Below are positions 58,601 through 61,600 of a stretch of 64,000 nucleotides of DNA, piece by piece. The stretch is from Escherichia coli. GTDB lineage: Bacteria; Pseudomonadota; Gammaproteobacteria; Enterobacterales; Enterobacteriaceae. The stretch lies in assembly GCF_041248615.1 (NCBI RefSeq), contig NZ_CP158426.1. One strand, given 5' to 3'. Position numbers: made by a program. Position 1 is the first letter of the stretch; every line of letters begins with the position of its first letter.

Positions 58601-61600
58601 ACGCCACGAGCCGGGCCATTTTCATGCCAGCCAGTATATTTTCTACACTGATGCAGTCTGATTTTCACCATTCCATCCTCACTGATTGTCGTGTTGTTTT
58701 GGGTCATCACCACAGCTTTCCGTTTCTCTTTTAATCGGTAACGCTCTCCTTTGATATTCAGCGTGGTTGAGTGATGCAGCAGTCAATCCAGGAGCGCTGT
58801 TGTCCGGCAACCACCATATCAACTTCTTCCCGGCGTGCCGGCGCTGGTATCCAGGCCGGGTTTCGAAGCGAAGCGTTCCTGACGGACTCATTGACATCCG
58901 GGCCGGATGTAGTCATGCAGCATGGAACGTCCGCCCGTATACACTGACGGCGTCCGGCCGTGTACAGAGATCGGTAAAATTCGTTACTACAACTGTTCCT
59001 GAATATCTGACGAAGAAACATTCAGCAATAACATCCGGCCGTGTACATCTCTTTTGCGGTGCAGGGAGCACTGTCGCCATGTACTTATTGTCACCAGGGT
59101 GAGGCATGTACCGCAGCATGCCAGCTCAGCAATGACAGGATGCCCTTAAGACATCCGTCATGGCTCAGTATGATGACGACGAACACGCTCTGCAGGTGAG
59201 CATGCAGGGCCGGGGGTATCATCATTTCCGTATTTTGCCGCACCTTCCGGAAACAACCGGCATCAGTTACGGTTACCGTCAACCGTTGTGCGGTATGCCA
59301 GGAGCACGTACTGATCCATCAGATCCGTCAGTGCTGCGTTCTGCTTCTGACGGTCGATGATCCATTCCCCCAGCTCTTTTTCTGATTTCCGTTTCAGGTT
59401 CTCCGTCCAGTCGTCAAGGCTGTTTCCGGTCATTAAATCAAGCCAGCAAAGCCAGACCAGTTTGAGGCGCAACTCCGTGCCACCAAACTGACGGAAGAGG
59501 CTGATCAGTTTATTTGCCAGAGAACGCTGCCTCAGACGTTCACATTCAGACAGCAGAATCCCTTCCAGCATCGGATGATGAACCAGCAGATGTTCGCTGG
59601 TGCATAAGTTCACCACCAGATCATCATCCAGGGGCGGCGTGGCCCGTTTGTCAGAGCCATAAATCAGCCGGTGCAGACTCCGGGGTACGATGGCAATCTT
59701 CGGTTTTTCACCATTGAATGACACCCACCCGGGCGTCAGATTATGGAAGTAGTGGATATTCGGATGACACACGCCCCAGGATACGGCGTGCCGGGTGAAG
59801 CCGGTCAGCCATTTCTGGTAGCTTTCGTGGAGCAGCTCGTAACGGGTCTGATACTGTGGTTTCATTTTCATATTCCTCACGGGGGATAACAGGCAGCAGA
59901 GTGCCGCCGGCAGGCCGGAGATTGCGTCTGCTGTGGGCGAAGGGCCAGTGGTTAAAAATTACGGACGGGACTGTGCAATACGCGCCTGCAGCCAGGCTTC
60001 CACTTCACTTTTCAGCCAGCGGGAGCTGCGGCCGAGTTTGATGGGAGCCGGAAAGGCCCCATCCTTGATGAGCTTGTAAAACCACTTATCGGTCAGGCCG
60101 GTCAGCTGAGTGATAAACGTCATATCGACCATCTGGTCATCCATCAGCGAAACTGGGGTGGTCATAAAAATCTTCTCCGGATGTTGTTAATCTCAGCCGG
60201 CGTTGATGATGAAAACAACGCACCACCTTCACCGGCATAACAACCGGGGAGAAACGTAAAAAATCAGTAGGGGAATATTCCTGCCAGGAGAGAAACTGTT
60301 GTGTACAGGCAATACAGGTTGTCTGTTTTGTCAGTGAAGCCGGTATAAACGGAAGATGATTTTGTGTTGCCGGAATATGGGATGGCGTTTTGCCGTGACA
60401 GGATCAGTATTTTCAGTGATGATTATTACTGTGCAGGGGAGTACCGGAGATAAACCACGCCCTGTACCTGCCAGAGCGGAGGTTTGTATTGACTGAACGG
60501 AAGATAAAGCGAGGTAAACACTGTTGCGGTGAGCGGAGAAGACTGAGATTATTCTCTGTAATTACAAACAACAGTGATCTGATCCGGTTTTTTTACCGTT
60601 ACGGGTTTCCGGGGATCAATTTTATAGACCGGGGTAATGACCACGCCGGAATTTATGGAGAAAAGCGGGATCCAGCAATAAACGTCCGGATATTTCTGTG
60701 TCTCCGGAATACCTTTTGTGCCAGAGGCCATCAGATCTTTAACGCTCACGAAAAATGACTTCCGCAGATCAAAAAAGTACTCGTTATATATCACATCCTT
60801 TGCCAGCAGGATGACTGCATTACCAACAGCCGATTTTACAGGTGTTTCATCAGGTGGATTATCGTGATTGTATATTGTTCTTTCTATATAAATAAAACAG
60901 GCATATTTCGTCTTCTCCCCGGATAGTTGCATCTGGTATTCGCAAATGTCTTTGATATACCGACTTTCAACCCTTCCAATCATCTTATCCCGGCGATAGT
61001 GTCTTTTATGTTTCAGCGCGTACAGAACACCATTTGAACTGTCAAACTCCAGGACACTTCTGGTGAAAAGTTTGTTTTCCCAGATCTCCAGACAATACTT
61101 CTCTGCACTGACGACATTGCGTTTGTGGGGAAGATTCCGTTGATACACTCCATTTAATAAGCGTGACTGCAGTTCGCCTGCAAGTTGATAGTAACAGTTA
61201 ATGTCATTAAGGACAGGTGCTGTGGCGTTGAGTAATGTGTTGATTACCTTAGAGCGCGAAAGTTTGTGGGTATGACAGTACTCATCCACAATTCGCAGTG
61301 TCTCATCACTGGTCATATTGAAAGTTATACGTGTTGTCATGATGAAGTTTTCTGTTAATCATACTGGTTGATATGCATAACATTTCATAAAAAATACTGT
61401 TAATTCATATAATTGATTTTTTGACTGGTTTTATCCTCGTGTGGTGGAAAGCAGTATTACTGCCACTGTAGTCAGCATAAATCTATCACACAGAACCACC
61501 GAAAATGAAGCATTGCTCAGGGGGAAGCTGCCACTCGTATGAGTTCTCTGAACCATGATAACCAGTATTTTTCGTTTTGGGTGATTTGTTTATCGTTACA

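What the first reader, a model, noticed from the sequence alone, without database searches (positions are those of the whole stretch)
60549..61340. AT-rich 263-aa protein with RHH-like N-terminus and unknown C-terminal domain next to an AlpA-like regulator
The codon composition is strongly AT-biased relative to neighbours. The N-terminus looks like a ribbon-helix-helix DNA-binding segment fused to a roughly 200-aa domain with no motif I can recognise. Its upstream region is a long non-coding stretch full of TGTAA repeats. Location beside an AlpA-type regulator in an integrative island is a typical context for uncharacterised defence or regulatory cargo.
Basis: inference. Interest (0 to 1): 0.6.

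Follow-up and report, generated by a model that had tools for sequence, protein, structure and literature searches.

The report
YagM-family island regulator, function unknown
This gene is real and encodes a divergent member of the uncharacterised E. coli YagM protein family, a probable DNA-binding regulator that belongs to the conserved core of a class of integrative genomic islands and is not defence cargo.

Summary
The 263-aa ORF at 60549..61340(-) is real. It is AT-biased, under purifying selection, and present in 759 of 5426 complete E. coli genomes. It is a divergent member (25% identity to K-12 YagM) of the small, uncharacterised YagM family (Pfam PF27701, 'UCP007319'), found only in Enterobacterales and Aeromonas.

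The ribbon-helix-helix (RHH) call holds. Fold searches return almost only RHH proteins, and a tandem-linked model of the N-terminus forms the two-stranded ribbon. The roughly 190-aa C-terminal domain has no recognisable relative outside the family.

The 'cargo/defence' reading does not hold. The gene travels with AlpA, an HUH Rep-like YagK/YfjJ protein and often a resolvase-like YagL, next to the integrase, while the downstream cargo changes from genome to genome. No defence-system model matched.

A conserved 26-27-bp imperfect palindrome (TTATGCA-N12/13-TGMWTAAC) sits 14-40 nt before the start codon here and in four distant relatives, and next to yagM in three more. My best guess is a dimeric RHH regulator of the island's core module, with this palindrome as its operator.

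The TGTAA repeats are real but vary in copy number between alleles and are not conserved outside E. coli. They remain unexplained. Molecular function is untested. This is a new member of a known but uncharacterised family, of modest interest.

The parts
60549..61340 (-). YagM-family (PF27701/UCP007319) protein gene, 263 aa
   Evidence: ORF. The identical RefSeq protein is named 'YagM family protein'. Homologues at 93-95% identity carry PF27701. BLASTP against K-12 YagM gives E=7e-15 over the full length. dN/dS is 0.12-0.39.
61140..61340 (-). N-terminal ribbon-helix-helix domain plus long second helix (residues 1-67)
60567..61106 (-). C-terminal alpha/beta domain (residues 79-258) with no recognisable relative outside the family
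61355..61380 (-). Imperfect palindrome TTATGCATATCAACCAGTATGATTAA, 14-40 nt before the start codon; candidate operator
   Evidence: It occurs once in the window against 0.05 expected. The same element lies at the same position in Pectobacterium, Citrobacter, a Providencia plasmid and a metagenome locus, and just after yagM in Serratia, Sodalis and Yersinia. It is invariant among E. coli alleles except one position.
60458..60478 (-). Terminator-like hairpin about 70 nt after the stop codon
   Evidence: Consensus scan only. It suggests the gene is transcribed on its own.
61341..61667 (.). Conserved non-coding region upstream of the gene
   Evidence: It is nearly invariant in five E. coli alleles that differ by 5-20% elsewhere in the spacer. 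Frame-breaking indels rule out a conserved small ORF.
61671..61748 (+). TGTAA array: five TGTAA and one TGTAG at a 13-nt period, flanked by ATAGAAGTAT direct repeats
   Evidence: Copy number varies between alleles (0, about 6, 8-9), and the array is absent in other genera.
59959..60165 (-). AlpA-like HTH regulator/excisionase; conserved neighbour
   Evidence: Orthologous neighbours carry Pfam Phage_AlpA.
59263..59880 (-). 205-aa protein of unknown function; conserved partner of AlpA
   Evidence: 47% identical to the 191-aa gene next to AlpA in Pectobacterium. No family match.
62757..63356 (+). YagK/YfjJ (inovirus Gp2-type) HUH Rep-like protein, transcribed divergently from the YagM-like gene
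   Evidence: RefSeq name. 40% identical to the Pectobacterium orthologue. The HUH (HIH/HAH/HYH) and YLxK motifs are conserved.
62385..62525 (+). Short Hha/YmoA-family ORF between the spacer and yagK
   Evidence: RefSeq annotation of identical DNA.

Best explanation
The ORF encodes a YagM-family protein that I propose is a sequence-specific DNA-binding regulator of the island's own core module.

Proposed mechanism: two N-terminal RHH domains pair into a beta-ribbon that reads the major groove. The DNA-facing residues would be R4, T6 and N8, by analogy with CopG R4/T6/T8. The long second helix and the 190-aa C-terminal domain would hold dimers together and may receive a signal or bind a partner. 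The protein would bind the conserved palindrome TTATGCA-N12/13-TGMWTAAC that overlaps the last 40 nt before its own start codon. That would repress its own synthesis and, directly or indirectly, set expression of the adjacent Rep-like yagK (and yagL in other islands).

Shown here: family membership, the RHH fold, backbone synteny, and conservation of the palindrome.

Inferred: DNA binding, the identity of the operator, repression, and any role for the C-terminal domain.

For: Conserved RHH signature: S28-R29-S30, plus R/K4 and T6.

Backbone role: the order int, AlpA (or YagN+YkgV), YagM, YagL, YagK is conserved ahead of variable cargo in Serratia, Sodalis, Yersinia, Salmonella, C. koseri and K-12. 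YagM and YagK are divergent neighbours in Pectobacterium, Citrobacter and this window.

Candidate operator: the same 26-27-bp palindrome lies at -38 to -40 in five loci whose YagM proteins are only 30-57% identical and whose flanking DNA does not otherwise align. It also lies 16 nt after yagM in three more loci. YagM is the only protein family present in all eight loci: the plasmid lacks AlpA and YagK, and the window and Pectobacterium lack YagL. The element occurs once in the 64-kb window.

A real, selected gene: dN/dS 0.12-0.39.
Against: No experiment addresses this family's molecular function. The literature holds only high-throughput mentions of K-12 yagM.

Sequence-profile support for RHH is below every threshold: aCcr1 E=0.0025 at 17.7 bits against a cut-off of 60, CopG E=0.82, and no Pfam RHH hit.

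The palindrome is missing from the K-12, Salmonella, L024 and L022 loci. In one clade it lies downstream of yagM, so it could belong to YagL or be a promoter element.

Half-sites about 19-20 bp apart are wider than in classical RHH operators, so binding would need two dimers.

The C-terminal domain, which is 70% of the protein, has no assigned role.
Confidence: 0.5

Rival explanations
1. YagM is an accessory DNA-binding factor for the HUH Rep/relaxase-like YagK. It would bind the origin (of replication or transfer) in the yagM-yagK spacer and help YagK nick and process the excised island, as TraY, TraM, MobC and NikA do in relaxosomes or as CopG does for RepB expression. The TGTAA array could be the iterons.
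Against: The 4.1-kb Providencia plasmid carries YagM and YagL without any YagK, and replicates from a ColE-like origin shared with hundreds of small plasmids. The TGTAA array varies from 0 to about 9 units among E. coli alleles and is absent from Pectobacterium and Citrobacter. YagK/YfjJ occurs without YagM, for example in CP4-57. The TraM and MobC matches reflect the shared RHH fold only.
Confidence: 0.2
2. YagM is a stand-alone defence, abortive-infection or addiction protein. The RHH domain would autoregulate or neutralise, as an antitoxin does, and the C-terminal domain would be a toxic effector released on infection or on loss of the element.
For: Most fold matches are RHH antitoxins. The islands carry defence systems nearby. 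A homologue sits on a small plasmid, where addiction and Abi genes are common. The C-terminal domain is an orphan with invariant D191 and near-invariant E125 and R154.
Against: There is no PADLOC or PHROG match and no phage homologue. The gene is in the conserved module, not the variable slot. No partner toxin gene exists, and the gene appears to have its own terminator. No nuclease, RelE or ParE-like fold was found for the C-terminal domain. Antitoxins dominate the RHH matches because most solved RHH structures are antitoxins.
Confidence: 0.1
3. YagM is an accessory or directionality factor for the YagL-type small serine recombinase, and the 26-bp palindrome is the recombinase's crossover or binding site and not a YagM operator.
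For: YagM and YagL are adjacent and co-directional in most loci, including the small plasmid where YagL keeps its catalytic R-x-S and DRLGR motifs. The element is 26-27 bp, the size of hix- or res-type sites, and lies directly upstream of yagL in Serratia, Sodalis and Yersinia. The yagK-yagM pair is inverted between E. coli and Pectobacterium.
Against: The window, Pectobacterium and Citrobacter loci keep both YagM and the palindrome but have no YagL. Island YagLs have lost their catalytic motifs. The palindrome lies inside the inverted segment, not at its ends. Only one copy is present per locus.
Confidence: 0.08
4. The gene is a decaying remnant with no present function in this mosaic, IS-ridden island.
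For: The surrounding island is degraded, with pseudogenes, IS elements and a truncated hha. Many database entries are fragments. K-12 yagM is poorly transcribed and subject to strong Rho termination.
Against: The ORF is intact in all five divergent alleles, with dN/dS 0.12-0.39. The locus is present in 759 genomes, and 741 of them cover at least 80% of the 1.7-kb query stretch. The upstream region is highly conserved.
Confidence: 0.05

Closest known systems
E. coli K-12 YagM (b0279, cryptic prophage CP4-6); Pfam PF27701 'UCP007319'
   Same: Full-length homology (25% identity, E=7e-15). Both have an RHH-like N-terminus followed by the conserved motifs A-x-F-I-Y-x-x-R, Y-F-F-D, C-W-I-P and P-V. 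Both sit near the integrase with a YagK/YfjJ gene.
   Different: This is a different subfamily. Here the gene is divergent from yagK, no yagL is present, and AlpA lies downstream. K-12 has the order yagN-ykgV-yagM-yagL-yagK, a 38-aa N-terminal extension, and no palindrome. K-12 YagM itself has no known function.
CopG (pMV158) and other small RHH repressors (Arc, Mnt, omega, ParD/PrpA antitoxins)
   Same: The N-terminal strand-helix-helix, the R/K-x-T-x-N/T strand pattern, the S-x-S turn, and the predicted ribbon dimer. CopG also controls an HUH Rep gene (from my own knowledge, not tested here).
   Different: CopG is 45 aa. YagM adds a 39-residue second helix and a 190-aa globular domain. Sequence similarity is not significant (E=0.82). 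The candidate operator has half-sites about 19-20 bp apart.
NikR / MetJ-type RHH regulators with an effector-binding part
   Same: The architecture is an RHH DNA-binding domain joined to a larger C-terminal domain that could sense a signal. This comparison is an analogy from my own knowledge.
   Different: No fold or sequence match of the C-terminal domain to the NikR ACT-like domain or to any ligand-binding family. No ligand is suggested.
CP4-57 / CP4-6-type islands of E. coli and the tmRNA-associated IntY-AlpA-Gp2-like islands of Pseudomonas (PMC12595487)
   Same: A tyrosine integrase, AlpA, an inovirus-Gp2-like protein, RadC and DUF932 form the backbone, with variable defence cargo. YagM is part of that backbone in Enterobacterales.
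   Different: CP4-57 has YfjI (DUF3987) in the slot occupied by YagM+YagL. The Pseudomonas paper lists HTH proteins and mentions no RHH or CopG protein.
Relaxosome accessory RHH proteins (TraM, TraY, MobC)
   Same: An RHH fold plus an oligomerisation domain, encoded next to an HUH enzyme.
   Different: No sequence relationship, no conjugation genes nearby, and a homologue exists without any HUH gene on a small plasmid.

Membership tests
YagM family (Pfam PF27701 / UCP007319) | Significant full-length sequence similarity to family members or the family profile | tested here: met
   Homologues at 93-95% identity carry precomputed PF27701. BLASTP against K-12 YagM gives E=7e-15 over residues 5-257. 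The identical RefSeq protein is named 'YagM family protein'. The local Pfam-A copy lacks this model, so no direct HMM score was obtained.
YagM family (Pfam PF27701 / UCP007319) | Genomic setting in integrase-proximal island modules with YagK/YfjJ | tested here: met
   The exception is a small plasmid.
Ribbon-helix-helix (CopG/Arc/MetJ) superfamily | Strand-helix-helix fold | tested here: met
Ribbon-helix-helix (CopG/Arc/MetJ) superfamily | Dimer in which the two N-terminal strands pair into an antiparallel ribbon | tested here: met
   The tandem-linked construct gives strands 3-9 and 96-102, pLDDT 89-97 in the first 50 residues, pTM 0.71. Three of the five models are confident. This is a prediction, not an experiment.
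Ribbon-helix-helix (CopG/Arc/MetJ) superfamily | Significant match to an RHH sequence profile | tested here: inconclusive
   aCcr1 RHH model E=0.0025 but 17.7 bits against a cut-off of 60. CopG E=0.82. No Pfam RHH hit for any of 34 members.
Ribbon-helix-helix (CopG/Arc/MetJ) superfamily | Sequence-specific DNA binding | not testable with these tools
   Only a candidate site was found: the conserved palindrome at 61355-61380.
Type II antitoxin (ParD/CopG/RelB type) | Co-transcribed cognate toxin gene and a short toxin-binding tail | tested here: not met
   No adjacent small ORF is conserved. The gene has a 383-nt gap and a terminator-like hairpin before alpA. The C-terminus is a 190-aa folded domain.
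Known anti-phage defence systems (PADLOC-DB) | Match to a model of a known or candidate defence protein | tested here: not met
   No hit at E<=0.1. None in PHROGs. No homologue in 50,697 phage records.
Relaxosome accessory proteins (TraY/TraM/MobC) | Binding at oriT and stimulation of a cognate relaxase | not testable with these tools
   The evidence is limited to fold resemblance through the RHH domain and adjacency to an HUH protein.

The most novel reading that the evidence does not exclude
YagM may be the master switch of a widespread class of Enterobacterales integrative islands that carry defence hotspots. In this reading, a sensor-repressor uses its orphan C-terminal domain to detect a helper phage or plasmid protein, or a cellular signal, much as Stl does in SaPIs. 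Detection would release the palindromic operator and switch on the HUH Rep-like YagK, so that the excised island replicates or is mobilised.
Probability: 0.15. Interest if true: 0.65.

Novelty: new member of a known kind. Interest (0 to 1): 0.35.

Why it matters
The YagM family is one of the remaining 'y-ome' families of E. coli, and no molecular function is known for it. Three results here make it experimentally approachable: it is an RHH protein, it belongs to the conserved core of CP4-type islands that deliver variable anti-phage cargo, and it has a conserved candidate binding site. Gel shifts, reporter fusions and excision or replication assays would be short experiments. If the gene controls the Rep-like YagK, it would help explain how these very common islands are kept silent and how they move. 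On present evidence it is an uncharacterised regulator, not a new kind of system.

Tried and rejected
1. Sequence libraries gave nothing for the C-terminal domain: Pfam-A on the protein and on all 34 family members, NCBIfam, PHROGs and PADLOC, and a PDB profile search.

3. A possible relationship to YfjH or to the neighbouring 205-aa protein was rejected by hhalign (probability below 1%).

4. The TGTAA array as a conserved operator or iteron set was rejected as a general feature. Its copy number varies, it is deleted in one allele, and it is absent in other genera. Its function in E. coli is still open.

5. The search for related loci with the family alignment failed because the alignment has no conserved stretch of 7-10 columns.

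The pattern is too short for a collection of that size, so the test was uninformative.

7. YagM as the replication initiator of the small Providencia plasmid was rejected. That plasmid's non-coding region matches the origin of hundreds of small ColE-like plasmids.

8. A small conserved ORF in the upstream region was rejected because of frame-breaking indels.

9. The first literature search on 'yagM' was swamped by author names. Refined searches found only high-throughput mentions.
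Full report
**Observation.** The ORF at 60549..61340 on the minus strand exists and encodes 263 aa. Its GC content is 41.9% (GC3 44.7%). That compares with 55.6% for the AlpA-like gene downstream, 52.8% for the next gene and 49.4% for the whole window. The 1044-nt spacer upstream is 36.1% GC. The spacer holds ten TGTAA, all on the + strand, against a window background of 0.84 per kb. Five of them lie at a strict 13-nt period at 61671-61727, followed by a TGTAG. The pattern TGTAA-N8-TGTAA occurs four times against 0.08 expected.

**Identity.** The 1.7 kb around the gene is chromosomal DNA found in 759 of 5426 complete E. 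coli genomes. RefSeq calls the identical protein (WP_002431077.1) a 'YagM family protein' in one record and 'hypothetical protein' in another. Close homologues carry the recent Pfam family PF27701, named 'UCP007319', which my local Pfam-A copy does not hold. K-12 YagM (b0279, cryptic prophage CP4-6) aligns over the full length at 25% identity, E=7e-15.

The family is very small. An exhaustive search of 1.84 billion representative proteins gave 39 clusters. The named hits from the word-indexed and structure searches are Enterobacterales or Aeromonas. There is no homologue in 50,697 phage records. The gene is intact in five E. coli alleles, with dN/dS of 0.12-0.39, so it is a selected protein-coding gene.

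The literature has no functional study. K-12 yagM appears in the list of uncharacterised genes (PMC11551758). It is poorly transcribed in an rpoZ mutant (PMC5811629), and its RNA is a strong Rho-dependent terminator (PMC12133298). It also shows up in overexpression and deletion screens for oxidant resistance and persistence (PMC8228696 and PMC5845583).

**Structure.** An AlphaFold2 model built on a 34-sequence alignment is confident (pLDDT 81.7). It has an unstructured N-terminal 11 residues, helix 12-25, a long helix 29-67, a poorly modelled linker, and then an alpha/beta domain spanning 79-258.

- *Foldseek against AFDB50.* It finds only family members, a few uncharacterised enterobacterial proteins of about 314 aa, and then noise.
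- *Dimer test.* An RHH strand forms only in a dimer. I therefore modelled residues 1-68 twice, joined by a Gly-Ser linker, using a matching alignment. Strands 3-9 and 96-102 then appear with pLDDT 89-97 and pTM 0.71, and three of the five models are confident.

The family profile aligns end to end with CopG (MKKRLTITLSE...GLSKSAMIS against MskRITFn...iSrSkvIs). The E-value of 0.82 is not significant. The best NCBIfam hit is an archaeal RHH model, below its cut-off. S28, R29 and S30 are nearly invariant, and position 4 is R/K and position 6 is T in 28 of 34 sequences. These are the positions that face DNA or bind phosphate in CopG (my own knowledge).

**Context.** I looked at about a dozen independent loci.

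- *Serratia, Sodalis, Yersinia and a metagenome contig.* The order is integrase (after smpB and the tmRNA site in Serratia and Sodalis), a divergent unknown gene, AlpA, YagM, YagL, YagK, and then different genes in each genome. These include Gabija-like OLD+UvrD with TIR proteins, large unknown proteins, and restriction-like and FtsK-like genes.
- *Salmonella, C. koseri and K-12.* The order is the same, with YagN+YkgV-like genes in place of AlpA.
- *Pectobacterium and Citrobacter.* These are the closest relatives of the window protein (52-57% identity). The order is a 191-aa unknown gene, AlpA and YagK on one strand, with YagM divergent from them.
- *This window.* It holds the same four genes: the 205-aa protein is 47% identical and YagK 40% identical to the Pectobacterium versions. 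Here the yagK-yagM pair is inverted relative to alpA.
- *CP4-57.* YfjI (DUF3987) fills the YagM+YagL slot, and the AbpAB defence genes follow YfjJ.

YagM is thus part of the conserved integrase-proximal module, and the cargo is what varies. A 2025 paper describes analogous tmRNA-site islands in Pseudomonas that have IntY, AlpA, an inovirus-Gp2-like protein, RadC and YqaJ plus defence cargo. It proposes that these shared genes define core element functions (PMC12595487). PADLOC and PHROGs give nothing for the protein.

**A plasmid copy.** A 4136-bp circular Providencia plasmid carries a YagM homologue (30% identity). Next to it is a YagL-type small serine recombinase that still has its R-x-S and DRLGR catalytic motifs, plus a putative lipoprotein. 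The plasmid's non-coding part matches the origin region of hundreds of small ColE-like plasmids, so YagM is not its initiator. This locus shows that YagM can occur without YagK and AlpA. The YagL proteins of the islands have lost the catalytic motifs.

**A conserved DNA element.** Upstream regions of the window, Pectobacterium and Citrobacter genes align only in one block just before the start codon. That block is an imperfect palindrome with consensus TTATGCA-N12/13-TG(A/C)(A/T)TAAC. The window sequence is TTATGCATATCAACCAGTATGATTAA at 61355-61380 on the minus strand.

- It lies at -38 to -40 in five loci: the window, Pectobacterium, Citrobacter, the Providencia plasmid, and a metagenome locus where it is the perfect TTATGCA...TGCATAA.
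- It lies 16 nt after the yagM stop codon, upstream of yagL, in Serratia, Sodalis and Yersinia.
- It occurs once in the 64-kb window against 0.05 expected, and once per locus elsewhere.
- It is invariant except at one position among the E. coli alleles.
- It is absent at up to 2 mismatches from the K-12, Salmonella, L022 and L024 loci.

YagM is the only protein family common to all eight loci that carry the element. The eight proteins have R/K at position 4, T at position 6 and N or S at position 8. I read the element as the best candidate for the YagM operator. I cannot exclude that it is a YagL site or part of a promoter.

**The TGTAA array.** Among E. coli alleles the array has 0 units (a deletion between the flanking ATAGAAGTAT repeats), about 6 units with a 7-nt variant, or 8-9 units. 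It is absent from the Pectobacterium and Citrobacter spacers. On the minus strand each unit resembles a -35/-10 promoter pair. It is real but behaves like a variable tandem repeat. Its function, if any, is unresolved.

**Mechanism and rivals.** My best explanation (confidence 0.5) is a dimeric, probably higher-order, RHH regulator that binds the palindrome over its own translation start region. In this model it controls the island's core module, and the orphan C-terminal domain provides assembly and possibly signal or partner recognition. Only the fold, the synteny and the conservation of the element are shown. Binding and regulation are inferred.

The rivals are:

- an accessory factor for the HUH protein YagK at an origin (0.2), weakened by the YagK-less plasmid and the unstable TGTAA array;
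- a defence or addiction protein (0.1), with no supporting match and the wrong genomic slot;
- a partner of the YagL recombinase (0.08), weakened because YagL is absent from this subfamily's islands;
- a functionless remnant (0.05), contradicted by purifying selection.

**Verdict.** The gene is a divergent member of a catalogued but uncharacterised family, so it is a new member of a known kind. Interest is modest (0.35). Its main value is that it makes a y-ome family and the control of very common defence-carrying islands testable with simple experiments.

Noticed in passing
window 62757-63356 (+): The YagK/YfjJ (inovirus Gp2-type) protein keeps an HUH motif (GLHIHFVGY) and a YLAK motif. Both are conserved in the Pectobacterium orthologue (HAH) and in K-12 YagK (HYH). 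It is probably an active HUH Rep/relaxase-like enzyme in a chromosomal island, which would imply rolling-circle replication or mobilisation of the excised element.
   Followed up: partly
window 59959-63356 compared with L003 6745-8795 and L009: The divergent yagK-yagM gene pair is inverted relative to alpA in E. coli compared with Pectobacterium and Citrobacter. No repeat marking the ends of the inversion was found.
   Followed up: partly
window 61671-61748 (+), flanked by ATAGAAGTAT at 61656 and 61752: The TGTAA array has a 13-nt period and varies in copy number between E. coli alleles. It is fully deleted between the flanking direct repeats in strain E1624 (L013). On the minus strand it reads as stacked promoter-like sites.
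   Followed up: partly
window 61341-61667: About 326 nt of non-coding DNA upstream of the gene is almost invariant among alleles whose adjacent spacer differs by 5-20%. Frame-breaking indels show it is not a small ORF. It could be a long leader or another regulatory RNA or DNA element. Rfam found nothing.
   Followed up: partly
L021 (Providencia plasmid NZ_CP114799.1) 1905-3429; L005/L006/L018 8901-9473; L002 7221-7919: YagL of the islands is a degenerate small serine recombinase that has lost the R-x-S and DRLGR motifs. The copy beside yagM on a 4.1-kb ColE-like plasmid is intact. This suggests that the yagM-yagL pair came from a plasmid resolvase or invertase module.
   Followed up: partly
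window 62385-62525 (+): A short (46-49 aa) Hha/YmoA-family ORF. A full-length hha occupies the same place in other strains (L013).
   Followed up: no
window 25000-32000: A block of 30-35% GC lies inside a window of about 50% GC. From the annotation of a near-identical strain, it probably belongs to a kps capsule locus, as the serotype-specific region.
   Followed up: no
window 56800-59260: No long ORF on either strand. RefSeq annotates only pseudogene fragments here, including a piece of an AAA ATPase. This is probably the decayed cargo slot of the island. A weak sub-threshold CRISPR-DR13 match at 58639-58668 (E=0.41) is probably chance.
   Followed up: no
L005/L006/L018 about 74 nt upstream of yagM: A second palindrome between alpA and yagM (CTGCTATTT..AATAGCAG in Serratia and Yersinia; CAGCTATTTT..AAAATAGCTG in Sodalis) shows compensatory changes. 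It could be an operator or the alpA terminator.
   Followed up: no
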